Source: Azolla caroliniana
Lineage: Eukaryota; Plantae; Polypodiophyta
Length of the DNA: 64,000 nucleotides
Direction of reading: 5' to 3'
NCBI GenBank assembly: GCA_043228905.1
Contig: JBHGNT010000015.1
Span: 3,844,001-3,908,000 of the forward strand
Part shown: one piece after another, positions 3,856 through 38,512 of the stretch
How positions within the stretch are numbered: position 1 is the first letter of the stretch
Layout of the letters: each line of letters begins with the position of its first letter
Notes under the pieces: generated by a model
Databases searched by the model: none
Seen by the model: only the letters and a program-made list of their open reading frames with translations
Told to the model about the DNA's origin: nothing
Translations under genes and position numbers: made by a program

Positions 3856-5175
3856 TTCCATAAGGTACTCATGTACCATATGGGGGGGGGGGGGGACTGA
3901 CAAGAGAATGAAGAAGTATATTCTATTTTAAGCTGGATAGAGGGTGGTTGGGCGGATCCAAATAATTTCTCTCTTGTAGTCATTGATTCCCGTAAACGAA
4001 GAGCATCGACACGCGAGTCCGAACCAATCGGCGATTCACCCTTATCTCAGAAATTTCAGTGGTGTTACACTAGTAGCCCCCCTAAGACATATTTGATTGT
4101 CATTAATCGACAATCTCGCTTTAACGACTCTTCTAAGTATTAAAAAAATCTATCATCAAAATCTTTGAGTTTTAAATATATAAAACTTCCACCATTAAAA
4201 TTAAAACACATATAAATCTTCTTCCCAATATAAAACAATAAGTAAGAGATCATTCCAAGCACTGTTTCGTCTCTGATTTCATCAAAGCATTAAAATTTTA
4301 GCCACCACAAATATTTTAACCACTAAAAAACACAAAATGTGTTTTGAACATACTTAAAACATCAAGTTACACAAATTTCCAGCCACAAAATGTTTCTAAG
4401 ATCATAAGTTATGTAGTCTTGACTTCGGAGACCCAAATTGTCCAAAATCCAAGACCAAACCTAGAAATGAAAATTGAATCCATACAAAACAGAGATTATG
4501 GCCTATGTGGAGAGGATGGCAAATAGATTCAAAAGTTGAAGAGAGTACTAGTGTGACAATTTTCTTCAACAGAGCGAGTGGGAATTCTTTCTTCAATGGA
4601 GTGTTCATCTTGCTTATTTGCAATTCAACATGTTCCATTACATTACACACGTAGTTAGTTAGTGGGTGACCATACTCCATTGTGACCCCCGTTGTAAGTA
4701 GCAATGGCCACGGTTCAGTTCAGTTTCTTTGCCTTAAAACCAAACCAAACCAAACCATTTATATAGAACAAAAACCAAACGAAGCCGTGTATGAACACTC
4801 AAGCCATTTAAACCAAACCATTTAAGAGAAAAGGTAAACCAAATCATTTAAACCCAAACCGTTTAGGGAAAAGTTGAAACCAAACCAAACCATTTAGTAC
4901 AAAATTTAAACATAACCATTTAAGTAAAACTAATTAAAAATCTAAATAATCAAATATACATTAAATTAAATAAGCGTTTAAGTAAAATTCATCAAATCAA
5001 TAAAAGAAACTTTAATTAAACTAGTAAATTAAATACGCATTTAAGTTAAATTAATTAAATTAATAAAAAACCATTAAATTAATAAATAATTAAGGCAAAA
5101 AAAAAGTCAACTAGGAATACGAACAACGAACAGCAGGAGGAGCTCGTCGGGAGGCTGCACGAACAGCAGCTCGCA

Positions 5176-7064: not shown

Positions 7065-7065
7065 A

Positions 7066-10000
7066 ATGAATCTTAGCTTGCTAACATGGAATATACAAGG
7101 AATTGGTGGTAGCCAATTCCACATGAAGAACAATGTATTAGCTGCTGAAATTCAGCGATGCACGGAGGCAATAGTGCTTGATGTTATCATGGTGCAAGAG
7201 CATCACCTAGATGGGGATAAGATCGACAAAATTGGAAACATCTGCCCTGGCAGTTGGACCAATACATGGTCGGCAGCTACGGGGGACAGACAGATTCACG
7301 GGGGAGTACTCATAGCAATGAAAGCTAAGTATAATGCAACATTCACAGGCAGAGGATGTTTAGTAGAGGGTCGGGCTGTCTATATAAGGATCAAACATAG
7401 ATATGGGCACTTGGGCATACTGAACATATATGCCCCAAATTCTACTACTGAAATAAAGGAATTCTGGTTGCAACTAGTGGACAAGAAACCAGATGCAGAT
7501 ATGTGGATCATTGGAGGAGATTTTAATATGGTGGAGCAACAAGAAGATATAAGCGGAAATGCAAATGGCACGGTGCAAGGGGCGGAAAAAGATGCATGGG
7601 ATAAGTTTTGTTTAGCATATAACGTGATAGATTGTTGGAATGCATCTAACTTTCAGATGCAAAAAGAAAAATCTCTTCTATACTCTAGAGTAGGAGGAAG
7701 CGTTCATGGGAGGAGAATGTCCATGTTGGACAGATGGTATTTGGACCCTCGGCTCATAGATATGAAAGGCAAATGCATAATTTGTCCTGGAACGATGTTC
7801 TCAGACCATGCACCTATCCTGTTACATATAAAAAAAAACAGTCGATGCAATCCACATAATGTGAAGGGGAGCAAGGAGTTGGTCATGGACAATAAATGGA
7901 CTAATGATATAAGAAGACTATGGTCTAATGTCAAATGGATGTATCATGATCCCGCTCATAGGCTGGCTGGGAAAATTGAGGAATGTGCATGTTTCTTTCG
8001 GAAGAAAGCAACTGAAATTAGAAAGGAGATGAAGGAGAAACTACAAAGAATGCAATGGACACTCGCTTCTATGCAGCGACTAAGAGAACAATACCTGAAT
8101 AATGTATGGATTGAGGCCCAACTAGAGGAGGCAAAATGCAAACTGGATATGTATTAGAAACTAAGGACTACTAATGCCTATCGTAGTAAAGCAGTAAATT
8201 GGATGAGGGTAGGAGACCGTGTTATGAAAGGTTTTTTTGAAGCTGTAAAATGCAAAGGCTCTGGGACCCAACCTTCATGTTTGAAAAAGACAGATGGCAC
8301 AATGACCACGTGCGCGAAGGAAATGCTTGGAATGGCCACGAGCTATTATATGCAACTACTGAATGTATGCAACGAGGATCATATTGAGCAGGATGCCTTT
8401 AGAAATATAATAAATAGGATACCGAAGAGAGTTTCGGCTCAGATGATGGACCGTCTAAATACCCCTATTTGTATACAAGAATTGTGGGATGCAATTTCAG
8501 ATATGAACAAACAAAGTTGTGCAGGCATAGATGGACTCCCTATATATTTTTACATCAAATATTGGGATTTAATTAAGGATGACATGTTGGAAGGGATGCA
8601 ATACATTATGGCTGAAGGTTTAATGCCTCCGACATTGTATCAAGGAATGATTTATTTAATTCCCAAGGATGGGAAAGATCTAACTATGCTTGATAATTGG
8701 CGACCTTTGACGATTCTCACTAATGGCTATAAGATCATGGCTAAAGTTGTAAGTAGTCAATTGAAAACGGTCCTAGGGGACATAATACATACAACGCAAA
8801 CTGGCTTCCTCGAAAACCGGAGCATTGTTGACAATGTGATAACTTTTTGGGAGTATTCAGCATGGGCAGAGGAGCAAGAAGTGGACCTAGCAGTAATGTT
8901 ACTCGATTTTGAAAAAACATATGATAGGATCTCATGGGAATTCCTAGAAGCAGTGATGGCTGCCCTAAGCTTCGAGCAGCAATGGATCCTTGGATTGGCT
9001 GCCTTTTATAGGGATGCTTCCAGCCAGGTTTTAATGGCTGGAAGCTTGGGGAAGAGCTTTAGGATGACACGATCGGTACGCCAGGGATGCCCATTGGCCT
9101 CGTACCTATTCATTATTGCAGCGGAAGTGTTGCATTATCAGATTAGTGATAGATATTGGCAAATACAAGGCCTTCCCCTACCCGAGGATGCAGGAATGAT
9201 GCTTGATACAGAATATGATGATGATACAACAATTTATGTTAAGGGGGATGCAAACAACTTGGACAGACTACAAAGTGCAATAAATGAGTTTTGTAGGGGG
9301 TCATGTGCGAATATAATTTGGAATAAATCAGTGGGCATTTGGATTAGCAATAAGCCTGTGGTCAATTGGGCTCCAGACCCTAATTTCAGATGGTTGAGGA
9401 GAGGAGAAGCTACTAGATACTTGGGTTTCAAAATCGGGATGGACATTGATCGCTCAGAACACTACACTCTACTTGTGGACAAAATAAAAGTGAAGTTAAT
9501 ATGGTGGAATGCAAGAAAATTATCCTTTGCAGCCAAGATTGTGATTGCAAATCAGGTGCTAATGGCCACAATATGGCATACTGTGGCATGTTGGATAATC
9601 GCACCCAAGTCGATGAAATTGATAAAAAGGTTGATCAGAAATTTCTTATGGGGGGGCACCGAGGAAAAACATGCTTGTGCAAAGGTTGCATGGACTACAC
9701 TCATAAAAGATAAACGTGAAGGTGGGGTGGGACTAATAGATCCTGTGGTGCAAACGAAGGCTTTGCTCGGCAAATTGGTGGTCAGGAGCTTGCAACCACC
9801 CGAGGCACCTTGGAAAATTCTCTGGCGACGCAGATGGAATATGTGGTTGCCAAGACATGGTGGGAGTTGGCCAAGTAGCCCTTTTTGGGGGTTTGTGCCT
9901 GAAATGCGACCCAAATACCGGGGATGTACACAGAGTATATGTGTTGTTGGAATTATGAAGGCATGGAATGGAATAAGAAAGGGAATCGTTTGTAGGTGGA

Positions 10001-11415
10001 GAAATGATGCATATGCTCGAATGTACATGCCTATTGTTTGGAACCCATTAATTAGAGATGTGGATGGGCTGATGATAGGACAAAAAACAGGTTTCAAATG
10101 GGCCAATTTAATCAATGCCCAAGGGAATACATTGGCAAATTGGAAGAGATTTCTACGTAATGATGTGGGCACTCAAAAGGCTAGAATATGGAGGATAAAC
10201 AGGGGTAAATGCATGCTAATGAGGATTACAGATGCCTTTGCACGCAGCGGGCAAATCTTGGAAGAAGCAGCCATAAGCCCCTCTGAAATGGAATGGACAG
10301 GACTCATCGATGCTGAAAATTATGTAATTGGAATTAAGGGAATGAAAGCCAACTCTAATGAGGCATGCTACTACAAAATAGATCATAGAAGGGTAATATG
10401 TGAGCAACCAGCCTATCAAAGTGAAAGGCCAATTAGGTTGCTTGCAAAAAATGGAAAGGCTATGATAGTTGACCCCAAACCAAGTGAGCTCAAACCAACG
10501 ACGGTGTGTTGGCCGATAGAAGGGAATTCAAATCAGCTATCATGGGACCCTGCGATGTATTTCTGGAAAACTCAAGGTCCAAGTGATGGTGCCAAGTTGG
10601 TGCAATTTTTCAAGTACAACACGAAAATCGAGAGGCAAATTATCCTAAAACAAGAACACCAAGATATTGCAGCTCGTAAATTTTGGATACAAGAGGGCAT
10701 TAGTGAAAGGAGATTAGCTAAATTCTGGAAAATGATATGGCATGACAGCGGTGACCGCAAGATAATGATGTGCTTATGGCTTATTGTGCATAGAGCCTTG
10801 CCAGTAGGGGCATGGGCTAAAGGCCCCAATGTAGACCCAAGATGTAGTGCATGTGGACAACTAGAAAGCATTTCCCATTGTCTTTGGGAATGTCATGAGG
10901 CTATGGTAGTATGGAGAAGGGCATTACGATTGCTTTGCCATGCCTCTAGCTCATTTACCCTCAATTGGGGACATGCTTGTTGGAATTGTCTTGATGATGA
11001 CGTAGAGAATTTTGATAGCACATGTACAACTATGTACAAAGGGGAGAATGGGACTATTCGAGTGATCGTTGGTAAAAGTGCACCTAGAAGTAATGCCCAG
11101 AAGCAGAAAATTGTAGATCTATGGATGTTGTTAGCACCCATTATCATATGGAACATTTGGACCGCAAGATGTACCAGGGTATTTTCAGCAAACAAACGGC
11201 CTCCAACAGAATCTATTAAGCTAATATGGCACATGCTAATAACTACATTGAGGGCCCAATATGAGCGGATTGATGGAATAGATGATGCTTCAGATTTAAT
11301 GAGACTGAAATTCAGAAAACGATGGTGTACTACACCGATGGCTACAGAAATTGGAGTGGAGATACGATGGCAATACGTAGTACCGAGATGGTTGTTCCCC
11401 CCTCCCATTAGATGA
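7066..11415 (+). pseudogene. LINE ORF2: APE endonuclease - reverse transcriptase - zf-RVT; in-frame TAG at 8155-8157
   Basis: LLTWNIQG, NIYAPN, GGDFN, SDHAPI (APE); NWRPLT, DFEKTYD, RQGCPLA, YDDD (RT); CSACGQLESISHCLWEC. Confidence 0.93.
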
Positions 11416-11834
11416 TAGAGGGGCGTGAATGACACAACAAACATGGAGAACAAACATATGGGCTATTTAGTGTAAGATAAATATGTGATGTAGTCCATAC
11501 GGAAGTAGGTAATGTCTAAAGTTGTGTATTGTATGTCATTTTAACTAATGGAGTATATTCTTCTTTTGGAAAAAAAAACAAAAAGTCAACCAAAAACCAA
11601 TAAACCTTTAAACCAAACCATTGAAACCGATAAACCCGAGTTTTAGAACCGAACCGAACCGTTTATTAAAAATCGAAACCAAACCATTAATTTATTGTGG
11701 AACCAATAAACCGTTAAAAGCATGACTTACGGTTTGGTTCGGTTCGGTTCGGTTGGAGCCGAAACCGTGCCCATTGCTAATAATTTGTAAGTAGTGTTTT
11801 TCGCACAGATATACTAATTGTATGTTTTCACCAG

Positions 11835-11992
11835 AAGAAGAAGAAGAAGAAGAAGACGAAGAAGAAGAAGAAGGAGAGAGAGAGAGAGAGAGAGAGAAAG
11901 GCCTTTCTCTCTGAAAGGCTTGACCCCTGTTCTGTGACTCCTTCCTTCTGCCACCGTCGCCATCACCACATCCATCCATCCATCCATCCATC
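11835..11992 (+). repeat. (GAA)n, (GA)n and (CATC)n microsatellites in the TYW1 5' leader
   Basis: Read directly from the sequence. Confidence 0.85.
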
Positions 11993-11993
11993 C

Positions 11994-14900
11994 ATGGAGC
12001 GTCGACACATCGTCGCATTGCAGTGTGCTTCCATTGCTCTGCTCTCTGTCTCTCTCCTGCATTTCTACCGAACCCGGCGTAGAAACCTTCGCAGGGCTTC
12101 TCTAGAACGTGTCAAAGATCTTCTCAATTGGAACAGAGAGCTAGAAGGCCTGGAAGAAGGAGACGAAGACGAAGACAATGAAGCAGATGCAATAGCAGAA
12201 GAAAAAAATGTGAGGGGTCGGACTTCTCATATCTGTACTTCTAATAGCAATAAGGAGACGAAATCATGTGGTAGTTGTAAACCTAAATTACCATCTTCTC
12301 GTCGTAAAAGGAAAGAGGAAGGTTCAGTTAAGCATCAAAATCGGGCAAATCGAGTCTTGAATTTGCCCGAGAAGCGAACATTAGCTGAAAATCCTATTGT
12401 CTTGGATGTCAAGTCTCTTAATTCTATCCAAGGTAAAGTTATTTATGCTTCTCAAACCGGTCGTAGTAAGGCCTTAGCTGAAAAACTTGTTCGAGATCTC
12501 TTAGTTGAGAATGCTCAAGTTGAGCTATTGGACCCTTTGTCTTATGAACCCGAAGACTTAGCTCAAGAGAAGTTTGTTGTCTTTGTTGTCTCGACATGGG
12601 AGAATGGCTTAGCGCCAGATCATGCTTCTTTTCTTGGAAGATGGTTAGAAGAAAGTTCTGCCGATTTTAGGGTCAGTTCTTGGCTCCTAAATCAGTGCAA
12701 ATATGCCATTTTTGGAATAGGTAGTAGTGCTTATGGCTCTTCATATAATATGGTTGCTAGATCCTGGGATCAGCATATGTCAGAACTTGGGGCAAGTAGG
12801 ATACTTGATAGAGAAGAAGGAGACGAAGATGAAGGTTTGGTGGATGAAAAATTCAAGGAATGGACGGAAAAGCTCATTAGAAAGCTGAAGTCTCTCAATG
12901 GGTCTCCATTACAAGTGGTTCATGAAGAAGGAAATATCGATGATGCTATCGATAGTGACGATGAAGATGAAGATGAAGATGATTATGATAAAGATGAAGA
13001 TGAAGATGACAAAGAGAATATGGAAGAAGAGTTGGTTGATGTAGAAGATATTGGAGGGAAGTTTGATGTATCGGGGAAAAAAGATAACGTGCTTCTAGAA
13101 AATGGTAAACAAAAAATATATAGAAGGAAGAATCAAAGCAAAGTAGTTCCAAGTTTGGACAATGGAAATCAAGGACCAAAGGAAATGGTGACCCCAACCA
13201 TTCGTGCAAATTTAGAAAAGCAGGTTTGACATCATGCCACTATCTATTACTAGGAAATTTCATGGTCTATATATGGATGCTTGTTTCCAATATTTGGTTA
13301 TGGTGGCTATGCAGGGATATAAAATCATTGGTTCACATAGTGGTGTGAAGCTTTGTAGATGGACTAAGTCACAGCTCCGAGGACGTGGTGGATGTTATAA
13401 GCATTCATTTTATGGCATTGAAAGTCATAGGTAAGAATTTTATGCTTGGCATTCGAGAATGTTTTGTTACTAATCAGCAGTCTCCTTTTCATGTGTTAAA
13501 AATTGGAAAGCATGAAAAAAGACTGCGAATCGGATATTTGTATATTTTATAGGATTTGTAGTTTTCAAATATTTCCAGCCCATGCTCCTTTATAGTTCTA
13601 TTTTTTCTGATAATTCGATTTACCTAATTTTGTGCTACTTGACATGGTAAAGATTAAAATGTTTGTAAAAGAAACCCTGTTTGGCTAAGCTAGTTTGTAT
13701 ATTTGACCACAGGTGTATGGAGACGACACCAAGCCTAGCATGTGCTAACAAATGTGTGTTTTGTTGGAGACATCACACGAATCCTGTTGGCAAGACGTGG
13801 AAGTGGAAAATGGACGACCCTATCGAGATTGTTGAAGCTGCATTAGACAAACATATTAAAATGGTCAAACAGATGAAAGGTGTTCCTGGTGAGACTTGAA
13901 AGTGAAGTTTTCATATCTATATATGATCTTTGCAAAAATGGAAACACTTTGTTCATTTATGGAGTGTCTGTGCATGTGTTGCATCACAGGCGTTAGTCAA
14001 GACCGCTTGATCGAAGGAATTAACCCCAGACATTGTGCCTTATCTCTGGTTGGGGAACCTATCATGTACCCTGAAATTAATAAGCTAGTAAGAGAGTTGC
14101 ACAAACGCAGGATTTCAACATTTCTCGTTACCAATGCACAATTTCCAGATTGCATCGAAAATCTGGATCCGATCACACAGGCATGAATATTGAGAGTTTT
14201 GTTTGTTATAGAAGTTGTTCTACATTGTGAATCTTGATATTATCTCTAGAAAAGCTCACAGGAGGACATGTATACCCATCTTAAATTGGCACTTTTGGCA
14301 TTATCAGCTCTATGTCAGTGTTGATGCAGCTACCAAGGAACGGCTTAAGGCTATCGATCGACCACTTTTTGCAGATTTCTGGGAGCGCTTTGTAGTAAGC
14401 AGTTTGCTGTTATTGTTTTGAGCATGAAAATTTCTTGGTGCTATGCATAACATGAAATCACTTTTGTTGTATTTTTCTCTGAAATTTGAATAGTTTTTTA
14501 CTATCAAAATGATTATTAGGGTAATATACTAAGCTTAAAACTTATTTCATTTTTTTGTATTTTGTTTCCTGTGATGAAATATCTGGATCTTTTAGAATCG
14601 TAATGTCATAAGCATAGATGAAAATATGTTAGTCTGAAACATGGAATTGAATTTGAAGATTATGAGCACATGCTAGTCTGAACCGTACAATCTATAATAT
14701 CAGATTCCACCCCATATGGGATCTGTCGACAAACTAATTCATCAGAAAACATACATGGCATCTGGTCAGGTCGACAAGAAGTCCTTACCCTCTTTTCTTC
14801 AGCTCGATTGTCTCTGTTCTTTGCTAGGATCCAGTCATAGGGTTCTTTAGGTGGATTTCTTGATCGCAACCTGCTGCCTAGTAACGTGAATCTGGAATCC

Positions 14901-18420: not shown

Positions 18421-19087
18421 GCTAGAGATAGATTCACACACACACACATGCACGCGCACGCACACACATTGATTGAAGGAGATGAGAACAAAAACAACAC
18501 ATGCACGTGCACACACGCACATTGGCAGATAGAGATACAAACATAATCAACACTTTGGTGGTGATGGAGATGGAGATGAAGATGATGGAGATGGTGTGAA
18601 TGAAGAAGAAGATGAAGAGTCCATTCCACTTTTGGCACCCCTCTTTCCGTTTTTTGGTCTATAATTCCTTTTATCTTTTTGCTTTAACTGATTTGTTAGA
18701 CTCTTAACACTTTACATTCCATTACATTTCCATTTCGTTTTTGTTTTTGTTTTTTGTTTGGGAAGCTCTAAGGTTCTCTCTAACAAACTCAAACTCTTTA
18801 TGAAATAAGTATAATAAGATTTGTATATAAATTATTACAGAAATAAAATAACAGCGAATTTAGGGCTTCTTTGCATCGCCCGCACGTTTTGTGACGTTCG
18901 GGAATTGAATAGAAGATCTAAATGATTAAAATTTGTAAAAAAGGAATTTAAAAATAAATAAATAAATAGATTATATATATATATCGTCGAAAAAAATTCT
19001 GAGCAGACAGAAATCACAGAAAAAACTGTTGAGGAAATTATTGCTGTTTTTTGTTTTCGGATTGCTTCTGTTTTGGTGTTTGTATGT

Positions 19088-20911
19088 ATGGATCTGATGA
19101 TTGGCTCTGATGATCACGATCGTCCTCCTCCTGCTTCGGTTGATGATGATCGTATTTATATTAATTTCGCCAATGGCAATATCATTCCAGCAATCCCTAA
19201 TCCCTCTCCTCCTCATAACAATGTCCTCCTCCTCTCCGATTCTCAGCTCCTCGATGCCATGGAAGCTGAATTGCGCTTAGCTTACAAGATGGTACTGCTA
19301 CAGCGATTCCCATCCATTCCTTACTGTTAAATTTTTATTTTTTGTCCATTGATTCGCTCAACTTTGCGTGCTTAAATCTGAATGAGAACCTTCTTTCTGC
19401 ATCCGTGGAATTATTAACTAAAAGTTTGACATAATGAACCAACGAATGGAATTGAAACTGTTAAATTTTATTTTATTCTTTTATCCATTGATTCACTCAA
19501 CTTTGCGTGCTTAAATCTGAATGAGAACCTTCTGCATCCGTGGAATTATTAACTAAAATTTTGACCTAATGAACAAACGAATGGAAATGGAATTGAAACT
19601 GTTAAATTTTATTTTATTTTTTTATCCATTGATTCACTCAACTTTGCGTGCTTAAATCTGAATGAGAACCTTCTGCATCCGTGGAATTATTAACTAAAAG
19701 TTTGACCTAATGAACCAACGAATGGAATTGAAACTGAACTGAGATGAGAACGGATGGATCATGGCAGGTGGAAGAGCTGAAGCAGGCGCCACGGCATAAT
19801 AAGAGCTACAATTCTAGGTCACGGAGGGGAATGAATGGAAATGGTAGAAGGAGTGGTAGTAGCAGTGAGGCTATGGCGCTGAATATAGCGAAGCCATGCT
19901 GTTTCTGCAGCGGCAGCACTACAACCGCCGCCGCCATGGCAAGTCATGAAATGATGGTTCAGACGATGAGCAGGAGCGGCTCGGATCAATTCCCGTCGCC
20001 AGATTCGACGGCGCAGATGCGCAGCAGCGCCACCACTACGCCGCCGCGACGATCTTCCTCCACTTCTTCTTCTTCTCCCTCGTCTTCCCGCCTCCTCCTC
20101 CTCAGTAATAGTAGTAATCTGACGGTGCGCCATTTTTGTAATTTCAGCATATATTTTCTTTTCCCTCCATTTTTTCGTTACTACTTATAATGTGATAGAT
20201 GGTTGGTAGTTATATTGGAAATTCATCCCTACTTACTGACATGATTTAGATTGTACTTCCTGTATGATTTGAACACGTTTTGAGTTCCTTATGTGTGTAC
20301 GCATATTATGCATCTGAGAGTGCGCGCACGGAGCAATACTCCACACATATTATTCGTAAATGGATCATTTGCAATGGAGGGATTAAGTATCTAGCTCATA
20401 TTAAGGGTTCATTAACAGAAGTAATGGATTGAACTAATCCAGAATGCATAAATTTGCTATTGTTTTCGTTGCATATTGTGTAATCCCAAAATTAGGGCGG
20501 CGTAGGAGATGGGACGGTTTTTAGGGTTTCAATAGAGGAAGTGTGTTTAGTAGTATCATCCATGGAGGCTTTTAAAAACAGTCTGGTGAATTTTTAAAAT
20601 AGTATAAGGCCTTAAATGAATGTGAGCGATGAATTCTTGGAGCACTTTTATAGAGTAATGCACTTATAGTCTTGAGATATTCCATGGTTTCAGAAAATTG
20701 GATTTGTTTAATTACCATTCAATGTCAAGTCCATGTAATTAGCGAGCACTTTTAATGTATTGGTTGCCTCAAACTAATCTAAACTTTACCATAACTCCAG
20801 GTTGCTCAGAAGCTTTTCGACACGCGAATGGAGACTGTTTCCACAGGGTTGAACCCAGATGGTTTGATGCTAGCAGTAGACAAGTTCCTCTCTTCCCCTA
20901 ATTACAGTTGA
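19088..20911 (+). CDS. Putative orphan Ser-rich protein (~223 aa); exons 19088-19291, 19768-20124, 20801-20911
   Basis: Three GC-richer open blocks joined by phase-0 GT-AG introns: MDLMIG...LAYKM | VEELKQ...SNLT | VAQKLF...SPNYS*; (TA)n upstream at ~18972; no recognised domain; intron-1 acceptor lacks a pyrimidine tract. Confidence 0.55.
19324..19737. repeat. ~135-140-bp tandem repeat x3 filling intron 1 of the orphan gene
   Basis: CTGTTAAATTTT...TCAACTTTGCGTGCTTAAATCTGAATGAGAACC...GGAATTGAAA three times. Confidence 0.92.
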
Positions 20912-22197: not shown

Positions 22198-22394
22198 TAT
22201 ATGTATATATTTATTTATTTTTAGATTTAATGTTTAACGATTGACGAAGATGTTAATGTGATATGCTGTCATTACACAGACTAAGATTAGGCATATATGG
22301 TTGACACTAATTATGGATCAATGGCGGCTATAATTGGGGGGTATGTACTACAGGCAATGGATTTTGGATTCGATTGGATTGGATTGATTTGTAT

Positions 22395-23381
22395 TTACTC
22401 CTGGTGGTGTCCACTGTGATGGTCATGGCCTGATGCATTTGGGGAGGTATGATGATGATGATGGTCATGGTGGCTAGATTGATGGCCATCATGCTGAGGC
22501 TTGGACGCCTGATGCTTCTTCGATTTCCTCTTGTGGCCTGCACGGGCAGAGGCAGGGCGTTTCTTCGAAGCAGCAGCAGAAGAAGAAGAAGCAGACCTGG
22601 ATGAGGCCTTCTTCTTCCCTTTCTGTGCTGCTACTTTCCGCTTCTTCGTGCCGCCCGCCTGATAATTTCCCACAGACATCATCATCATCATCATCATGAA
22701 AAGCCATAGATATGGAGTCAATTCTTCTTTATGATCCCATGGGAAATGCTTAATTTTTAGTCCATTTCTCAGAGAATGAATTAAGACCAAAGAATCAACC
22801 AAATTTAAAACAAACAGGTTAATTTTTAGTCCATTTCTCAGAGAATTAAGACGAAAGAATCAACGAAATTCAAAACAAACAGGAACTTAAATTTTTGGTC
22901 CATTTCTCATAGAATTACGACGAAAGAATCAACGAATTCAAAAAACACATGTAAATTTTAAAGAATTATGACGAAAGAATCAACCAAATTCAAAACAAAC
23001 AGATCAATTTTAGTCCATTTCTCAGAGAATGAATTAAGACGAAAGAATCAACAAAATTTAAAACAAACAGGTTAATTTTCTGTCCATTTCTCAGAGAATT
23101 ACGACAAAAGAATCAACAAATTTAAAACAAACAGGTTAATTTTATTCCATTTCTCAGCGAATTAACACGAAAGAATCAACAAATTTTAAAACAAAAAACA
23201 GGCACGCAAACACAAACGATCCCCGAAGGCACATTCAAGATGGTTTTTCTGTAAGAAGGAAAGGGATCATTAGAAATATGTATTGGGAGTTTTTTTTTAC
23301 CTTGACTTTGTGGGGTTTGGAGGCGAGTTTCTTCTTGGCAGAAGGAGAAGCAGAAGCCTTCATCTTTCGAGCAGGAGCCAT
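22395..23381 (-). CDS. 114-aa highly basic, His-tailed protein (protamine-like / sperm nuclear basic protein candidate); exons 23381-23301, 22658-22395
   Basis: ATG at 23381 (TCCATGGCT context); MAPARKMKASASPSAKKKLASKPHKVK, donor AAG|GTAAA, acceptor TATCAG|GCG, then AGGTKKRKVAAQKGKKKASSRS...HDHHSGHHQE*; phase-0 intron; both exons share K/A/S composition. The gene model is fairly firm; the function is inferred. Confidence 0.75.
22748..23203. repeat. ~65-70-bp minisatellite x~7 filling the intron of the basic-protein gene
   Basis: TTAATTTTTAGTCCATTTCTCAGAGAATTAAGACGAAAGAATCAACGAAATTCAAAACAAACAGG units. Confidence 0.92.
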
Positions 23382-23542
23382 GGATACTAACTAATGCGTA
23401 TCTTCTTCCTGTATATGAGAGGTACTTTGGCAACGAATCAGAGCAAAATTAGGGCAAAGCTTTAAATTATGTTAATCTCAGAACACTCAGGGATTAATCA
23501 ACTAAACTCCTGATGAAATTCGGATGGGAAGGATTGAGAGAT

Positions 23543-23692
23543 TATATATATATATATGTATATATATATGTATGTATAGCTGATTCTTCTTCTGAAGGAT
23601 CGAAAGGGTTGGAAGGAGCCAACCGTCACGTGACCCCTCGCCAATAACCGTCACGTGATTAATTTAATTCCTCCATAACCGTCAACCCACGT
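23543..23692 (-). promoter_or_regulatory. Promoter of the basic-protein gene: (TA)n TATA-like tract plus 3x AACCGTCA (DUO1-type MYB site), two overlapping a CACGTG G-box
   Basis: AACCGTC at 23621-23627, 23646-23652 and 23677-23683, i.e. 240-300 bp upstream of the ATG. Confidence 0.6.
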
Positions 23693-23768: not shown

Positions 23769-24173
23769 GATCATGCCTTTACATAATTTTCTCATTTTTT
23801 TCTCTTTTCTAAAGGGCATTTTGGTAATAAAAAAAACTTCTCTTATATTATCCTAAAACCCTATATGTTAATCCTAGTACCACCCCCATGTCACGCGACA
23901 ACTTCTATCTCTTGGTGTTATAGGACAGTTTCATTATTCAGTTATCCGATCGTTGCATCCCACTAGAGAGCGGGTATATAGATAGATTGATAGATCTATC
24001 AGTTGATGGATTGATTTATACATAAACCTCCCGAATTTGAATTCGTTGATCCTCGCCCATCAAGTGTAGTCCCTTATATGGAGCGAATCATCCTACTTGG
24101 TAGATTAAATTACAAACCTTTCATATTGTGGCATGCTAGACTCTTTCCCGAACATTAGTGCCTATCTTCGACT

Positions 24174-24470
24174 GTATCTAGTCATCTTGGGTCATGAGCT
24201 TTCGTTATGCATTCTATCCGCGAGTGAAATGGTCGTCTTTATGCATTTGACATGTCAGTACGACACGTCGTCAATTTTATGCATCTCTCGATCTAGATAT
24301 TGGCATCAATGGGTTGTATCTAGTCATCTTGGGTCATGAGCTTTCGTTATGCATTCTATCCGCGGTTGAAATGGTCGTCTTTATGCATTTGACTCTCACT
24401 TTTGACATGTCGCTCCGACACATCGTCAAATTTATGCATCTCTCGATCTAGATATTGGCATCAATGGGTT
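24174..24470. repeat. ~143-bp tandem duplication
   Basis: TGTATCTAGTCATCTTGGGTCATGAGCTTTCG...GGCATCAATGGGTT twice. Confidence 0.9.
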
Positions 24471-27400
24471 TCCCTATCCGCAACATCCAAGCGCATGAAT
24501 AGTCAAGCTTTTTTTTTTAGAGTTATCGTTGCAAAACTATAAGGTTGCCATTTCAACGTTTCTACCTTGGTTATCTTAGCTTCACCTTAAAGAACCATTA
24601 AAGCGTAACATGTCGACCACATATTTAATGATTCATAGGGAATCTTGCTTCTATATTAGAGTGATTGCATGCTTTTTAACAATCATGTTTGAAAATTTAT
24701 ATAGTTTTGATGAGCTACTAATTATATGGTAGAAATCAATAGATTCAATCTGAATCTGTCATCAATGTCACGTTTATAATAATAAATATAAAAGTAGCTA
24801 AGAGAAGATGAGATGAGCCAAAATTGAATCGGCACTAATGCAATATAAGTGGCTAAGTTGAAGCTAAGCATAGAAGTGTATACCGCTACAATTGAACATG
24901 TGGTTTTATCCACGATCATGTGATAACTTTCAATCTAAAAACAAACAAAGATGTCAACTAGGGAAAGGGTACTTATCACCCATATTGACGTTTCTTGACT
25001 ATTTATGCAGGTGTGGTGATATTCATGATGCGGACGTGGTTGAAGTCATGCACGCTAATAATAAATATATTGTATGAGTTTCTTGACTTGATCCTTGCAA
25101 CCTAGATGTAAGGTTTGAAGGTTTAATGATCTCAACTAGAAACATTCATGTTATATTGGATTTATGTTGAGGTGATTGATTATATACACATGAAATAAGG
25201 GTACACAACTTTATTGATGGATGCATAATGATAGGGATAGGTTAACACCTTAGTTTCTTAAAACAAGGTTAGTGTTGTCAATAAACAATATGTTTGATAA
25301 TAAACACTCATGCACTCACATTACCAAGATTAAAAGTGTGTCAATGTAATTGAATATCCTTTCATGTGACCTAATTAAAGGAAATGCCTAAATTTCTAAC
25401 TTGAAAGTTACATTATAGTAGAATTGTATTGCATGTTTTGTCTTTTGTGTTCATATTTTGGACCACTTAAGGACCACCTCTTTGATGTACTACACAATCA
25501 TCACAACCTATTATAATAATGGGAAGGGTATCTACCATTGGCATACATGTGAATCTTGAAAAGTGCAAATTTGATAGTTACGACTTCATTGTGAAGTGAT
25601 TCTATAAATGTAACTTGTAAAAACATAAGGGAATGGTTGTATCTCAAATAATGCAATAAAATTTTGAATTATTGGAGCCCATGATATAAACTCTCCAAGT
25701 TGACATGAAGATTCTATATTATTTTCACATTTTGTATGTTAATTGCATTGCAAAGATTCGATAATATTAATGCACACCATATTGTTGAGTATTTACCATA
25801 GTTAATCAAGACCCCATACTGATAACTTGCAATTGGGCATCTCCAAGAGTACCCTAAAGTTTTAAAAAATGACAATGGCCCAAACTTATGCCTATAACAT
25901 CTTGAAGTTTCCAAGAATTGCGATAAAAGACCTCCCTTAGTAGTCGTTGACATATATCAATACCCAACAACAAGCTCGCTAAGAGAGTAAATACTCTTGC
26001 ATTTCCCCGAAATGGTATGATCACAAATTATTACATGATGTTATAATAACATAAGAAGAGGTGTCTCACATAGAGAGAATCGTATATGTAAGGGCAAAAA
26101 ATCATCAAAAACATTGACAGAGTTGGTTTTTATTATTAAAGTAGTATAACGTGAAATAGAAAAATAAATACATAAAGGAAAATATCATCGAAGGCATTGA
26201 TGTATATCATTCTACCATTGTGTCGTGATATATGTGTATCTGTTAGAAGATCCTTGGCATGACATGTATGAGGATCATTGCATTTGAAGTGCAACACACT
26301 TCAACCAAGTTCCCCACCCTAAAAAACTAAGGAAAACAATCAACATTGCACCAATAGCACGCCATTCTCTCTCGCAAATATCTTTGTATTATATCATGTT
26401 TATGAATTGTATTCATATAGCGTTTATTTTTAGAGTCAATATTTGATCTTTTAACTCTTCTAACTTAGGCAAACATTTGGAAATAACCTACATTTCATTC
26501 CTCTTGCACACGCACACATGTATGCGAGTGAAGCAAACCCCACACTTTCCTACACCTATATATGCACATACTTGTATTCTTCCCCTTGTTCTTTGAATAG
26601 TTGCCCATCATCCACTCTCACTTTGCATGGTGAGCACCATTTCCCTCTACCATTTAATCACTTTCTCTTATATTTGTTGTTTCCCATGCTTTTAAAATAA
26701 CTACGTGTTGATCTTCCTGTCCCAACTTCTTAGTTAGAACTGTCGCCAAACAAATTTACAATACACCATATGATAGCTCCTATCTTCAAAGTGTTGATAT
26801 CACTAAAGACATAGTTTCCCAATACTCTTGGTTGTTTCTTCTTGCCATCAACACGCTCAAATGTTTTCTCTTAGTAATCATTGTTATTTTTAGGAAGATA
26901 GAGTGTCGTGAGTTTCTAACATAATAGATTATCTCCCACAATGAAATTTGATTTTTCTCCCCTTACTGAGTTTAGTGTCTTTCACCCTTTCCATGGCCTT
27001 TTCCCAAGTTTATAGCTATTAAGTATTTTTTTCACGTTTTATAATTTGTTATTGATTGCTCAAAGCAAGTTGTAGCTATGGCACCTCACATTATGGCAAA
27101 AAAAAAAAAGCTTCATAATGCAACATAGCTAGGTTTCTTGCATAAATTTGTGCCCATGTTGGAACGTTTAGAATCCATGCTTCTATTCTTACACAATTCA
27201 TTATTGTTTCTAAAGTTTGTCTCATGAGTGAGCAAATCTTTATATAATAAAAGTAGATAGTCAAATGGTTAGTAAACCTCTACAATGTACATTGTAATTA
27301 AGTAAGGGTGTCATATAATGTGTTTGAGCTTATTCGGTGTATAATGCAACAAAAAAAGTATATATAATTTTTATTAACACATGGATTCATTCAAACTAGT

Positions 27401-31215: not shown

Positions 31216-34200
31216 AATGTGAACAGACAGGGCCTCACTTCTGAAGAAGCTGCTCGATTACTCAGCAAATATGGACCCAACAAACTTGAAGAGAAACCTG
31301 TAAGACCTTCAATCTGTGTATTTTGCCTGATTCATGACGCTTATTCATTTAGCAGAAATCATTATTTGGCACCAGTCAACCCTTCATGTCCTCTACGCGT
31401 GTATGGGTTGAGAGAAACAACAAGCTCATCAAATGCCTATTAAAAATCTGGAAACTTGTTGAGGGGAGTGTGGCCAGCTTAATTTCTTTTTCGTAAATAA
31501 ATTCTCATCCGATAGCAGGTCCCGCCAGGTTCTAGGAATTGGATTATAACGAATCAATCACGTTTCCATTAACATGTATGATAGTGGCTTTGCGTATATG
31601 AATGTGTTTAAAGAGGAATGTAGAAGAACCCGAAAGAATATTTGAGTGCAAAAATGAAGAAAGAAATGACTGGCTCACAAAGATTGGAATGAAAAACAGG
31701 TGAGTATCACATTAGGAAGGCTGATGAAACATGGCTATGTTTCAGGCACTCTGTAGAGATTCTTGGCAAAATTTGTTATAGTTTTTCATAATACATTATA
31801 ATAATGGATATCATCTGACAAGTAATATTCAAGGAAGAATGCATGGATATACTCTTCCTTTTTTGGTAACGCATTATCTAAATGGACATTGTCTCTTTTA
31901 ATGACCAATGAAGGTGAACAAGAGATTATATCTGAAAATGTTGTGCTATCTAAGCAACAACAAGATAAGCCACATAGCCATTTGATGGAATTATATGGGC
32001 CCTTGAGCTTCTTTAAAATCATAACTCATAGACATGGACTTCCACTCCAGCACACAAGTAAGAGTTTGGATACATACAACCTGGTGAAGTTACTGGTGGA
32101 CAAATGCTCACATAAAAATTGATATCATGATGACTGCCATCATGATCATTTACAAGCACACTTCCAAAAGCTGGAGGTATTAGGATATTCACTCATGCTA
32201 TTGAGATTTGCAAACAGAAACCTAATGGATTTTTCAAACCTTAAAAAAGAAAATAATATATGAGCTCTTCTTGGGACATACTGTAAGAAAGACTGACATA
32301 ATCTGAGAGAGAAAGATGAAAGAAAGAAAGAAAAGTATATTAACATCTTTTAAGAGACCAAAATGGCCTATACGACCAAACAAGAGATTACAGCTTAAGT
32401 GTTGTCTCATCATTGAGAACAACAAACCAAAATAAATGTCACTAAGTAAAAAAAGTAAATACAATAAAAGGTGAGTAAAGTACCTTGTTATCGGTCCATG
32501 TAAGATTCTCTAGTCAGATAATTTGTAATTTTTGTTTTTGAAAGTTCGGTAGCAGAGGATAGATTAATGTCCATATATGAGGTCCTGATGATGAATTCAT
32601 CCTCCTATGATTGCAAAAAGTGTCTTATAGTGGGCTATTTTCCTATCAAGTGATGTTTTGGGGCTGATACTTGTTATCTTGTTTTGCATTGGAGTGTGTG
32701 TATGCCACCTTTTCCTTTCCCAAGAAGAATTTTGGTTTTGATCTTGTTACCCATGCTTAAGTAGTGTTAAACATCATCTCTCGAGTTTTATTGATGTTTA
32801 TCAACAAATCTTTGACTGTACAAAATACCTTGAAGGTGTTTAGATGTCTTTGTAGTTCCTCTGTGGAGTCGGAGATCAGCACAATGTTATCAGCATATAA
32901 GAATATCTGTATCTATACGTGCTAAGCATGCTCCCAAACTGCCATATCTGTCTGCAATGCCATATCTCATCTAAACAGATATCACAGAGAATGGGTGATA
33001 ATGGGCATACTTGTACTCCAATTGCACTAACCAGTCTCTAACAACCCATTGGGATATTGCACTTTTCATGACAGGGATTCATACAGTGCATATATTCCCC
33101 TTTGCATATTTACGGGGACACTAAGGACTTTTAACTGCTGCATGAGCCGAGCGCGTATGTTGGAGGCTTTTCAGAAATCCACAAAGCACAATCCTTGTTT
33201 TATGGGATATGCCCTCCTCAATAAGGTCTCGGAGGGTCAATATGTGGTCCAATGTTGTGAACCCTTTTGAAAGTCTGCATGTCCACCTGATCAACAGCTT
33301 TTTCTCTTTGGTCATACACTCAAGTCTGACTCTGAGATCAAGCCATTAAAATAGCTAAGTAATGGCCATTGCAAATTTGAAAGAACAATATATACTGTTT
33401 CACGATAATTATGAACTCCTCATTCACAAGAATATACCCTGGTGGTAGAAAGTGTTTTATTCTCTGGGTGGCATTGAACAGCCTAAAGTAATGGAGTAAC
33501 AACAATGATGGAATGTTGGATGAAGGTTTTTCATATCCACGTGATACATTATTGCACTGTCATATATTTTTAACTAAAATTTTGTAAGAGTTTTTAAATT
33601 ACCTGGACAGAGTATTCCATTACCATTATGTTACCTTCTAAGAGAAAGAAAGAAAGAGATTACATCTTAAGTGTTGTCTTGTCTTTGAGAACAACAAATC
33701 AAAATAAAATAAATATTACTCTGTAAACATAAAAGTAAGTAAGATAAAAAGAGACGAGGAAAACTGGTTTTCGGCACATGTGAGATTCTCAAGCTAGATG
33801 TATTGTAACTTTTTTCTTTGAAAGATCTCTAGCATAGGTTGATCCAGAATGGAAAGTTCTCCAGAGCGAGGGAAGCACCTGCGATGGCGGGAGATAATGG
33901 CTTCTATCTGTCGATGACAAGGGTGTTGAGGTCGTGGTCCACGGGGCTGGGGCCTACGTGCACGACAAATTGCTATTGCCCGATCAATTGTAACCCCTTT
34001 GTTATGTCCTGCTCAGGAGCCCATTTGTGTATCCCTTGATTGACTTGTAGCATTGGTAGGAGTGATGGGGTTAAAGAAAGTTGTGATTGTTCTTTGTGGA
34101 TGAGCTTGTGCGGCTGTATTTTTTAACAATATTTGCCGATGTCTCTTGAGCTCTAACAAGAAAAGGCAGACTCGATGGTACCTAGAACAATGGAAGTTAG

Positions 34201-37200
34201 AGAAATGGTCGATTGCCCTCAGTAAGCTCAATCCCCATCCAAACCATGTCTAAAAATGATTTCACGATTTACCAGTATTTGCTGAGAAAGAATAAGGAAT
34301 ATGATTCTTCACTTGTTTCTGATGTTGACTTCTTGTTCCTCTTTGGTCTGCTTAAGAGCATATATCAAGAAATTCTATGTCAAAGATGAAAGCATTGAGT
34401 ATTTGTGATTAGTGAATTTAGTGATGAATATCTTCTGTTTTGATTTGAGCAGGAAAGCCAGATTCTCAAATTTCTTGGATTTATGTGGAATCCTCTTTCT
34501 TGGGTCATGGAATTTGCAGCCATCATGGCAATTGCTCTTGCAAATGGAAACGTGAGTGGATTTTATATCTTGCTGAAGCTTTTAGAGTTTATTGATAAAT
34601 ATCTCTCATGTAGACACTATATTACAACTCTTCATGGAACAGAACAAACCTCCAGATTGGCAAGACTTCGTAGGTATCATTGTGTTACTCTTATTAAACT
34701 CTACAATCAGTTTCTGGGAAGAAAGTAATGCAAGCAGTGCAGCGGCCTCTCTTATGTCTCGCCTTGCTCTCAAAACCAAGGTGCTCATATTCCAAATAAT
34801 CACCAACTAAGTGAGATCTACATATCCATGCTAAGCTGACTTAATAAGGTATAGGTTTTGCGTGATGGAGAATGGACAGAACAGGATGCTTCTGTGCTGG
34901 TACCTGGTGATATTGTGAGTATCAAACTTGGTGACATTATACCTGCAGATGTTATACTTTTAGAGGGGGATCCTCTTCAGATTGATCAGGTAAATTCAGT
35001 ATACCAACTTGAAATGAGGGAATGAATTTATGGTTGTTAACTGATTCATTCACTAGAACCTTGAGATAAGGTGATTGGTTTTGAATTTAGCATATTTTTA
35101 CATCCATGCATCTGTGTGTTTCTTTTGCAGTCTGCACTCACAGGGGAATCTTTGGCAGTTATAAAGAGAACAGGGGAAAAGGTCCTTTCAGGGTCCATAT
35201 GCAAACAGGGGGAGATTGAAGCTGCTGTATTTGCAACTGGTGTGCATACATTTCTTGGAAAAGCTGCCCATCTGGTTCATTCCACGCATCAAGTTGGGCA
35301 TTTTCAAAAGGTCAGCCTTGAGAATTCATTGTATGGATGTAGGACGCTGGCATTCATGCATTGTTTGAAGCTAACTTTGTGGTCAAAACTTCAATGATGG
35401 ATAGCATACCAATTATATTGATTGAGATTTCTTTTCCATGTTATTGGATAAGCACAAAAGAATCATTCAAGAAAATGAAGACGAGAAGTGAGTGGTAAAT
35501 CCAAAATACAATGTGCATTATTGTTGCCTGTAGATTTTTGCGTTTGATACTGGGCTTCTAATTTCAGTACAACTATCTCCACAATACTTATGGAGAATGT
35601 GAATTTATGGTCCTCTCAATGTGCTAGTGGGTGAAGATAAGTTGCAGCTGAATATCAGCTGCATGTCATACTTTCACTTTGGATTGTTGAATCATGCACT
35701 TTCCTTTATTTCCAAGACCTAGATTTTCATTTGTGGCAGTTCTTAGTTAAATATCCTTTTTCATGAAAATAATAACCATTTTTGTAGAATACGTATGCTA
35801 AGTATTCTACAATATTCTAACGTTTTTTTAAGAATACGTATTTTATAGATAAAATACGTTAAATACTTCTTAAAATTAAAAAATATAAATTTCAAAAAAA
35901 ATAAATTAAAAAATTAAAAAAATGTTAAACTTTTTTGAAATGATAAATACTTGGTAAATACATAGAATATGACAAATTTTTAGAATACGTAGAATGCGTC
36001 AAATTTTGAAAAACTGCAGTTCTAAAACGTAGAATACGTGTAGAATACTTCGGCACATTCTAAAATGTATTCTAAACATAGAATACATGTTTTTTAACAA
36101 CTATGATAATAACCCAATTTGGTGGATCTGATGCAATGATATTTGTGTGTTTAATATAGAACAATTTCTTTCTGTAATAACAAAGATCTGCAGGATCTAT
36201 GTTTCATTTAATGTTGTTTCCTACTTGTTAATTTTCATTTTAAGTCTTGTATAATGCTCTTTTCAACTAGTTACAGTTTTTGAAATCGTTGAATTTCAGG
36301 TTCTAAAATCCATTGGAAATTTTTGTATCTGTTCCATAGCAGTTGGAATGCTCATTGAGATTGTTGTCATGTATCCTGTTCAACATAGGCTCTACAGGGA
36401 TGGGATTAATAACCTTTTGGTCCTCCTTATTGGAGGGATTCCCATTGCTATGCCAACTGTTTTATCTGTCACAATGGCCATTGGGTCACATCGCCTTGCT
36501 CAACAGGTAAAAGCAAAAGGATTAGAAATCTGTTGAAAATCATAATCCGGTTAAGAGGAGTTTGCATCTTTTTATATCTGGGTTGAACCGATGCTTTATG
36601 GATTGTTTGCTAGGGGGCTATAACAAAACGAATGACCGCTATAGAAGAATTGGCAGCTATGGATGTTCTGTGCAGTGATAAAACAGGAACTCTTACATTG
36701 AATAGGCTTACTGTTGAAAAACAACTTATAGAGGTAATCTTGGCTTGAACTGATAACCTTACTGCAACATACTTTTGAATGGGGAAATACAATACTCCAA
36801 TTTCATACCTGCATTAATCAGTGCATGTATATATGATTTTCAGAGAAGAGAATGTTGTATGGCACATGTTTTGTATAGGTCATTTTCATTTGAAGTTTTC
36901 ATAGAGGAATCCTCATGAAAGAATAGTTGAATATTCAATAAACTCACTTCCATTTCTGCTTCCAAGGTTCCAACTCAAAGAAATGGATAGCGTTATATGA
37001 TGACAAAGCATTCATGTTACGACAGCCAAAGGATGTATAAGCTGTATGAATTAAGACAACATGTCTTTTTAAGTAACAAAACAGTGTGTTGGAGCATTTC
37101 TTATCGTGAGGGAACAATTTCTCACTTGCCACTATTTAGGATCCCTTTGTTATGAAGATAAACACATTACGTGTATATGATTAATTGGGTAGTTCAAATC

Positions 37201-38461
37201 GAATTGATCTCTCAAGACCCGTTGACCTATCCAGGAAATTGTTTCAAGAGGATCATCATTTGTACATTCTTTTAATTAAAATAATTTCGTGTTTGACTCA
37301 CAGGTCTTTGAAAAAGGTGCAACTAAGGATAAAGTAATCATGCTAGCAGCTAGGGCATCTAGAACTGAAAACCAAGATGCCATTGACTCTGCTATCATCA
37401 GTTTGCTTCCTAACCCCAAAGAGGTGATATAGAAAAGAAAGAAAGAAAGAAAACTACATTACAGTGTTTTAAGAGGTCAAAATGGCCTGTAGGAACAAAC
37501 AAAAGATTACATACATCTTAACATGTTTTCTTGTCTTTGACAATAGCCAACCAAAATAAATAAATGTAATTAAATATAAAGTAAATAATAATAAAAGTGG
37601 CTAAAGAAGTTTGTTATCGTTAAATGTAAGAGTCTCAAGTCAGATTATATACCTCCAGCTTTTCCATTAGGATGCTGTTTTGTCTTCTAGGTAACTTTCC
37701 TCACCTAAGGATGTGGAAGTACCCATTATTTTCTGCCCCAAATTATATCTAATTCTAAAAGCATATTTGAATGATGCGTCACACGGTTCACAAACATTTT
37801 AGTCAGCCTATTACGCCAACGGATCAAAACAGAAAATCCTTACGGTTCAGTTTAGCCTAAGAAAATACTTGTTACCATTTAAATTGGTCCTTCCATTGCA
37901 ATAATGCCACAATTCTAATTTCAAGTGTTTCATCTGTACAATGTTTATTATTGCTTGAAGATAATGGCCACATACTTATTCACTGTTTGGTTGCCTCTTG
38001 TATGTGGATATTTGTTTGTCATCTAGACCTTCAAGACCAGAGGTATTTGATCTCCTTTTTGTTGAGTACTTTCTCAACAAATTTTATTGTTCCCTTGTAA
38101 GCACTTCTAGTTTGTTGTTTATTTTCTTAGCTTCAGTAGTTGTTGGAATAATTCTTGTCACACAATGCCTTTCGTTTTTATGCTCAGCATGCATTGTGTC
38201 CACTGCCTGAAAGTTCTTGTATTGTTTCACTTCTCTATATTGCACACAGAGAGAAAGAGAAAGAGAAAGAAAGACAAATGTAACGTCTTTTAAGAGGCCA
38301 AAATGGCCTATAAGACCAAACAAGAGATTACACCATAAGTGTTGTCTCGTCTTTGAGAACAAGAAATCAAAATAAAATAAATATTGCTAAGTAAATATAA
38401 AAGTAAATAAGATGAAAGGAACTAAAGAATCTGGTTTTCAGCACATGTAAGATTCTCAGGT

Positions 38462-38512
<51 letters not shown>

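What the first reader, a model, noticed from the sequence alone, without database searches (positions are those of the whole stretch)
23615..23692. Triple DUO1-type MYB motif (AACCGTC) overlapping G-boxes upstream of the basic-protein gene
Seen: AACCGTCA occurs three times within 63 bp, twice as AACCGTCACGTGA, just upstream of a (TA)n tract and 240-300 bp before the ATG. Established: the male-germline R2R3-MYB DUO1 binds AACCG-core sites (RRCSGTT consensus; GACGGTT fits) and drives sperm genes in Arabidopsis and Marchantia. Inference: a DUO1 plus bZIP/bHLH composite module, giving independent support for a sperm-chromatin role.
Basis: partly seen in the sequence, partly recalled or inferred. 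Interest (0 to 1): 0.75.

Follow-up and report, generated by a model that had tools for sequence, protein, structure and literature searches.

The report
Tripled MYB/G-box promoter, fern basic gene
In a fern genome, three copies of a short DNA signal matching the binding site of the plant sperm regulator DUO1 sit just ahead of a small, very basic, histone-tail-like gene, which would likely make it a sperm DNA-packing gene, but the same signal also occurs in ordinary histone promoters and is not enriched at this fern's sperm-tail genes, so the signal alone does not prove that role.

Summary
AACCGTC lies at 23621, 23646 and 23677; two copies carry TCACGTGA. They sit 240-302 bp before the ATG of a minus-strand, two-exon gene for a 114-aa Lys/Ser/Ala/His-rich protein (pI 11.6). 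The cluster beats chance (0 of 5000 shuffles), is single-copy and CpG-rich, and looks like an old triplication with diverged spacers. The genome is a fern's, with flagellar genes and a DUO1 orthologue, and one probably spliced contig supports the gene. The claim of 'independent support for a sperm role' is overstated. The consensus occurs singly in only 3 of 7 flagellar promoters (P=0.14), 0-1 times per 2 kb at four DAZ1-like genes, and in 9 of 19 histone promoters. The MYB+G-box composite recurs at no other promoter I could recognise. The histone rival is weakened but alive: the fern's histone element CCGTYNGAT (17 of 19) is absent, but GCCAAT and an H2B-like GACGGT...TCGATCC order are present. 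The protein has no detectable homologues and is not an arginine-rich protamine. Best reading: a DUO1-plus-bHLH male-germline promoter (about 0.4), untested for binding and tissue.

The parts
23621..23633 (-). Copy 1 (proximal): DUO1-consensus MYB site abutting a TCACGTGA G-box; extended palindrome GTCACGTGAC at 23625-23634
23646..23658 (-). Copy 2: identical 13-mer
23677..23692 (-). Copy 3 (distal): MYB site with an ACGTG core displaced outward (no full G-box)
23640..23645 (+). GCCAAT, identical to the CAT element of plant histone promoters; CCAAT is common by chance (P 0.87 per 700 bp)
23597..23603 (-). TCGATCC, degenerate octamer-like word that follows GACGGT in 5 of 6 H2B promoters of this genome
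23543..23578 (-). (TA)n tract ending in TATATAA (23548-23542); predicted TATA box, predicted start near 23510-23515 (not mapped)
   Evidence: the start site is inference
23301..23381 (-). Exon 1 coding part (27 codons, phase-0 GT donor)
   Evidence: contig piece 23300-23343 in run X1
22659..23300 (-). 642-bp intron filled with about 68-bp tandem repeats (83-86% matches)
22395..22658 (-). Exon 2 coding part (87 codons plus stop): Lys/Ala/Ser-rich basic segment and His-rich C-terminal 39 residues
   Evidence: contig piece 22318-22559 in X1

Best explanation
The three sites lie in the CpG-rich proximal upstream region of a two-exon fern gene for a 114-residue basic, histone-H1-tail-like protein; they likely arose by an old tandem triplication and are predicted to bind DUO1 together with a G-box bHLH or bZIP factor, which would switch the gene on in the male germ line, where the protein would help compact sperm DNA. 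Shown: the motifs, their rarity, the ORF and its composition, a DUO1 orthologue and flagellar genes in the genome, and a contig that fits a spliced transcript. Inferred: duplication origin, selective retention, the identity of the factors, the tissue and the protein's role. In copies 1 and 2 the MYB site and the G-box overlap, so the two factors would bind either as a tight complex or in alternation.
For: All three sites match RRCSGTT. All three have AA before CCGTC, against 5 of 47 CCGTY cores in histone promoters, and none has the NGAT tail, which 28 of 47 histone cores have. The cores are kept while the spacers have diverged, unlike neighbouring tandem arrays that match 81-90% throughout. 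There are 8 CpG in 130 bp, o/e 1.04 against 0.48 for the window, and 9 of 492 tiles reach 8. The sites lie about 110-170 bp above the predicted start. Of 13 genome loci with three AACCGYC, the 10 others read were retroelement, tandem or coding repeats or GC-rich stretches, the remaining 2 are copies of one of them, and none has a G-box in the match. The DUO1 orthologue is intact in its MYB domain. In Marchantia DUO1 controls the protamine-like MpPRM (PMC6290024 passages), and pteridophyte sperm use histone- and protamine-type basic proteins (PMC12849711 passages). The protein is K 19%, S 17.5%, A 17%, net charge +24, and aligns weakly to the C-terminal tail of one H1 of this genome (score 106; 2-3 of 2000 local shuffles).
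Against: DUO1 sites are not enriched at this fern's flagellar genes (3 of 7, P=0.14) or DAZ1-like genes (0, 1, 1, 0 in 2 kb). The heptamer is in 4 of 19 histone promoters and in the Arabidopsis H4 CG-element probe printed in PMC3603003. No other promoter-like locus with the composite was recognised among the 22 other 11-mer hits and 4 other spaced hits (judged from ORFs, without gene models). The sites also fit the general MYB core CNGTTR. The protein has only 5% Arg and no homologue. The H1 alignment is largely compositional: the reversed protein scores 92, and this was the best of 12 comparisons. Four of the 5 listed coding differences in the X1 contig change the residue, so no purifying selection is visible (10 of 13 differences were listed). 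The contig comes from a run of unrecorded tissue.
Confidence: 0.4

Rival explanations
1. Histone-type, proliferation-linked promoter: the three CCGTC are plant histone CG elements (with a CAT box and a degenerate octamer), inherited from a histone ancestor, and drive S-phase or meristem expression of an H1-tail-like chromatin protein.
For: CCGTC and GCCAAT are defined histone elements (PMC3603003 passages). GACGGT on the coding strand at -200 to -300 followed by TCGATCC is found in 5 of 6 H2B promoters and here. AACCGTC is in 4 of 19 histone promoters. The protein resembles histone tails.
Against: The genome's own histone element CCGTYNGAT is in 17 of 19 histone promoters (15 of 15 core histones) and in none of the three copies. 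The E2F-like GGCGGGAA is in 12 of 19 and absent here. A G-box is in 1 of 19 but twice here. There is no full octamer or ACGTCA hexamer. Local DNA alignment scores against the 15 core-histone promoters are low (18-29, no shuffle control).
Confidence: 0.22
2. A different MYB + bHLH/bZIP module (GAMYB-type, ABA/drought MYB with MYC or ABF factors, or an MBW complex) drives stress, desiccation or spore-maturation expression of a hydrophilic, His-rich, possibly metal-binding disordered protein.
For: All three sites fit CNGTTR. ACGTG cores accompany all three. The C-terminal 39 residues hold 15 His. MYB-plus-G-box logic is general in plants (search listing only; the rd22 and BAN examples are recalled). 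One contig appears at low depth in a run of unrecorded tissue.
Against: There is no dehydrin, LEA, ASR or other Pfam match. The first 75 residues have 27 K/R and no acidic residue, which suits DNA binding. [quoted passage not shown]
Confidence: 0.25
3. Neutral relic: a short promoter segment was tandemly duplicated, as often happens around this gene, and the repeated motif has no special regulatory meaning.
For: Similarity between copies 2 and 3 runs about 10 bp beyond the motif. Tandem arrays of 22-141 bp surround the gene. The composite is not reused elsewhere.
Against: Spacers are diverged while the 13-mer is exact in two copies, including two CpG each, in a CpG-depleted genome. The position is typical of proximal elements. 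No outgroup was available to test selection.
Confidence: 0.13

Closest known systems
DUO1-responsive promoters (Arabidopsis HTR10, DAZ1; Marchantia MpDAZ1, MpPRM)
   Same: RRCSGTT consensus; a target that may be a sperm chromatin protein; DUO1 MYB domain conserved in this genome. Clustered MYB sites in the HTR10 promoter are recalled from Borg et al. 2011, which was not held.
   Different: Sites overlap TCACGTGA G-boxes, which I did not find described for DUO1 targets. Binding, dependence and tissue are untested. Seedless-plant DAZ1 promoters carry only 0-4 sites per 2 kb (supplement of PMC6290024).
Replication-dependent plant histone promoters (CG element CCGTC, nonamer, octamer, CAT box)
   Same: CCGTC core three times, GCCAAT, a TCGATCC word in the same order and orientation as in H2B promoters.
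   Different: Lacks CCGTYNGAT, the E2F-like site and a full octamer; has G-boxes.
H1-derived sperm nuclear basic proteins (Marchantia protamine-like proteins; fern SNBPs)
   Same: Small, strongly basic, Lys/Ala/Ser-rich, H1-tail-like; lineage with flagellated sperm.
   Different: Lys-rich, not Arg-rich (R 5%); no H1 globular domain; His-rich tail; own gene rather than a cleavage product of H1 (D'Ippolito 2019: title only, from a reference list); no sequence homologue found.
MYB-core + G-box composites (MBW, ABA MYB/MYC promoters)
   Same: CNGTTR sites next to CACGTG.
   Different: The sites overlap rather than being spaced; the downstream gene is not a flavonoid enzyme or a known stress protein.

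Membership tests
Direct DUO1 target promoter | RRCSGTT site(s) in the proximal promoter | tested here: met
   three sites at -246, -271, -302 (motif starts on the coding strand)
Direct DUO1 target promoter | DUO1 orthologue with conserved DNA-binding domain in the genome | tested here: met
   G000:C4:24.797 Mb; 106/113 to MpDUO1 record P0026, 111/112 to Ceratopteris P0004
Direct DUO1 target promoter | The motif marks sperm genes in this genome (diagnostic value) | tested here: inconclusive
   3 of 7 flagellar genes with one site, P=0.14; DAZ1-like 0,1,1,0 per 2 kb; ATGs assigned by eye and these genes may be indirect targets
Direct DUO1 target promoter | Male-germline expression and DUO1 dependence | not testable with these tools
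   no RNA holder listed; X1 tissue not on record, contigs only
Direct DUO1 target promoter | Sites conserved in orthologous promoters | not testable with these tools
   no relatives held; metagenome scan gave two unrelated GC-rich bacterial-like hits
Replication-dependent histone promoter | CG element CCGTC | tested here: met
   three copies
Replication-dependent histone promoter | Nonamer-type element (CCGTYNGAT in this genome) | tested here: not met
   0 here, 17 of 19 histone promoters
Replication-dependent histone promoter | Octamer CGCGGATC or type I-III composite | tested here: not met
   no octamer, no ACGTCA; only a TCGATCC word
Protamine (P-type SNBP) | Arginine-rich composition | tested here: not met
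   Arg 5.3%, Lys 19.3%
Linker histone H1 | Winged-helix globular domain | tested here: not met
   no Pfam match for either exon; the locus is not among the 4 PF00538 matches
Linker histone H1 | Lys/Ala/Ser-rich tail homologous to H1 tails | tested here: inconclusive
   score 106 vs L104, 2-3 of 2000 local shuffles, reversed protein 92, best of 12

The most novel reading that the evidence does not exclude
A histone gene lost its globular domain and became a stand-alone, Lys/His-rich sperm DNA-packing protein. Its cell-cycle CG element was tripled and turned into DUO1 sites fused to G-boxes, so that DUO1 and a desiccation or germline G-box factor load the mRNA during microspore maturation, as stored transcripts are in Marsilea. 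This would be a traceable case of a histone promoter rewired into the sperm programme, and a named fern sperm basic protein gene.
Probability: 0.12. Interest if true: 0.72.

Novelty: new member of a known kind. Interest (0 to 1): 0.36.

Why it matters
Fern sperm nuclear basic proteins are known biochemically, but I found no gene or promoter assigned to them in my searches (the 2024 sword-fern paper was not held). If DUO1 drives this gene, the DUO1-to-chromatin-protein link known from liverwort (MpPRM) and Arabidopsis (HTR10) would extend to ferns through a third, unrelated protein, and a bHLH partner would be implicated at the DNA level. The 70-bp cluster is a compact, directly testable element. 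If not, it is an ordinary promoter cluster of an orphan gene. The general lesson from the controls is that RRCSGTT overlaps the plant histone CG element and a MITE-like repeat in this genome, so it is weakly diagnostic.

Tried and rejected
Transposon origin of the cluster: rejected, single match in the genome. Paralogue with a comparable promoter: the only other match to exon 2 (L006, C19) is a degenerate fragment in repeat-like DNA without exon 1. Protein relatives: none in the 5.8-billion set at near length, among 1.84 billion representatives, in the Atlas or Pfam; only exon 2 was searched in the first three, and low complexity limits these searches. Metagenome scan: 2 loci, both low-complexity matches in 73-74% GC DNA. 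Expression: no RNA holder listed, which is no evidence either way; exon 1 above 23343, the UTR and the promoter had no cover. Pairs of GACGGTT: 94 matches, 49 distinct loci fetched and read by eye (part of the output was cut), mostly retroelements and repeats. Triples of RRCSGTT: 1292 matches, first 100 listed, dominated by a MITE-like repeat. The reversed-pattern controls have fewer CpG and are not fair baselines. A first DUO1 pattern found nothing because the fern protein differs at one residue. RIB43A was not found. Tubulin promoters: only scattered single sites, no cluster with G-box among the alpha, beta and gamma tubulin starts located. No structure or complex prediction was run: the protein is low-complexity and the question is protein-DNA. 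Earlier findings were not open. Papers not held: D'Ippolito 2019, Ausio 2024, Borg 2011.

Full report
Observation. AACCGTC occurs at window 23621, 23646 and 23677; the first two extend to AACCGTCACGTGA. The third keeps an ACGTG core at 23688-23692. Four matches in 64 kb are unremarkable (17 of 100 shuffles), but the cluster is not: 0 of 5000 shuffles of the upstream 700 bp give three GACGGTT, and 0 of 300 give any tripled 8-mer. The 13-mer occurs three times in the 523-Mb genome, twice here; the third place (L002) shows no recognisable gene start. The 151-bp stretch had one match in the genome.

The gene. On the minus strand an ATG at 23381 opens 27 codons, then a GT-AG intron of 642 bp, then 87 codons ending at 22395. 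The product is 114 aa: Lys 19%, Ser 17.5%, Ala 17%, His 15%, Arg 5%, pI 11.6. The first 75 residues carry 27 K/R and no acidic residue; the last 39 carry 15 His. One 403-base contig of run X1 (RNA by guess, depth 4.1, tissue not on record, about 94% alike) lies on 22318-22559 and on 23300-23343 with only 89 letters between. That fits removal of the intron; the tool listed no formal joint because it skipped the low-complexity part, so splicing is my inference. Of the five listed coding differences four change the residue. No relative of exon 2 was found, and neither exon has a Pfam match. A decayed piece of exon 2 sits in repeat-like DNA on C19. The best of 12 histone comparisons is the C-terminal tail of one H1 (score 106, 2-3 of 2000 local shuffles, but 92 for the reversed protein), so H1 ancestry is possible, not shown. 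A TATATAA ends the (TA)n tract at 23548-23542, which would put the start near 23510-23515 and the sites about 110-170 bp above it (not mapped).

The organism. The genome has PACRG, Tctex-1, LC7, TPH-domain and RSP3 genes, so it makes flagellated sperm. It has a DUO1 gene whose spliced MYB domain is 111/112 identical to a Ceratopteris protein and 106/113 to the MpDUO1 record. This places it among ferns. That 22 chromosome-scale contigs and this size fit a water fern is recalled, not tested.

For the DUO1 reading. The published consensus is RRCSGTT, and MpDUO1 controls the protamine-like MpPRM (PMC6290024: passages, section 7 and supplement searches). Pteridophyte sperm use histone- and protamine-type basic proteins (PMC12849711 passages; PMC10858212 passages). 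All three sites keep the full 7 bases. The units align as diverged duplicates: the cores are exact and the spacers are not, whereas the arrays around the gene match 81-90% throughout. The cluster holds 8 CpG in 130 bp (o/e 1.04 against 0.48; 9 of 492 tiles reach 8), as expected of an unmethylated promoter. Triples of AACCGYC occur at 13 loci; the 10 others read are retroelements, tandem or coding repeats or GC-rich stretches, and 2 more are copies of one of them.

Against its diagnostic value. I fixed motif and window in a note, when PACRG and the two Tctex-1 genes had already been seen, and then added four genes. Of 7 flagellar genes, 3 have one RRCSGTT in the 700 bp before the best ATG, none has two, and none has a G-box; background is 0.197 per 700 bp, P=0.14. 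ATGs were chosen by eye and these genes may be indirect targets. Four DAZ1-like genes have 0, 1, 1 and 0 sites in 2 kb and DUO1 has one; published seedless-plant DAZ1 promoters have 0-4. Tubulin promoters show scattered single sites. The composite is not reused: spaced and fused forms give 4 and 22 other hits, in retroelements, introns, coding or anonymous DNA as far as ORFs show. Triples of the loose consensus number 1292, and the first 100 listed are mostly a MITE-like repeat.

The histone rival. In 19 histone promoters (15 core, 4 H1; several are close paralogues, one had only 129 bp) the element CCGTYNGAT is in 17, an E2F-like site in 12, RRCSGTT in 9, AACCGTC in 4 and a G-box in 1. The basic gene has 0, 0, 3, 3 and 2. 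So it lacks the fern's histone signature. It does share GCCAAT and the order GACGGT then TCGATCC with 5 of 6 H2B promoters, and the Arabidopsis H4 CG-element probe contains AACCGTC (PMC3603003 passages). A histone-derived promoter remains open.

Other rivals. The sites also fit the general MYB core, so GAMYB-type, ABA-type or MBW modules with a G-box factor are possible (search listing only; examples recalled). In Marsilea, transcripts for spermatogenesis are stored as microspores dry (PMC3205038 abstract), which would reconcile a desiccation-type G-box with a sperm gene; whether this applies here is unknown. A neutral duplication cannot be excluded without an outgroup, and none was held.

Verdict. 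The feature is real and probably regulatory. DUO1 with a G-box partner is the most likely single mechanism (0.4), ahead of another MYB/G-box module (0.25), a histone-type promoter (0.22) and a neutral relic (0.13). It is consistent with a sperm-chromatin role but is weak independent support for it. I found no paper on this gene or on a DUO1/G-box composite; three relevant papers were not held. Figure 4c of PMC6290024 (the motif logos) could not be seen and may bear on how well GACGGTT fits DUO1 against its sister MYB.

Noticed in passing
L059-L079, L104-L106 (histone promoters of G000): A shared element CCGTYNGAT in 17 of 19 histone promoters, merging the nonamer and CG elements, with an E2F-like GGCGGGAA in 12 of 19.
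   Followed up: partly
L006:1500-1680 (G000:C19:13014971): Decayed copy of exon 2 of the basic gene inside retroelement-like DNA, possibly a captured fragment.
   Followed up: partly
window 5086-11415 (+): LINE-like element with long open frames (410, 370 and 1085 aa); named by eye from recalled motifs, no family search run.
   Followed up: no
window 18962-20190 (+): Probable two-exon gene with a 141-bp tandem array in its intron and a Ser-rich second exon; no Pfam match. The window's fourth AACCGTC (20513) lies downstream of it.
   Followed up: partly
window 23800-25000: CpG-rich stretch (o/e 0.94) upstream of the cluster with an internal duplication near 24170-24470; possibly a young or unmethylated insertion.
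   Followed up: no
G000 genome-wide: An abundant AACCG-rich, inverted-repeat, MITE-like family that carries many RRCSGTT matches; one copy lies within the stretch fetched beside a CENH3-like match (L210).
   Followed up: no
L167:2954 (Tctex-1 gene, C5): GTGACGGTT about 330 bp before the ATG of a flagellar dynein light chain, the same 9-mer as in copies 1 and 2; single site.
   Followed up: partly
L206:1532-1570 (H3.3-type gene, C5): Two RRCSGTT matches 32 bp apart in an intron-bearing H3 gene promoter, in histone-like contexts.
   Followed up: partly
window 11784-13229 (+) and about 31400-45935: Flavodoxin-domain exon (Pfam) of a TYW1-like gene, and exons of a plasma-membrane H+-ATPase-like gene (names recalled); useful synteny anchors.
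   Followed up: no
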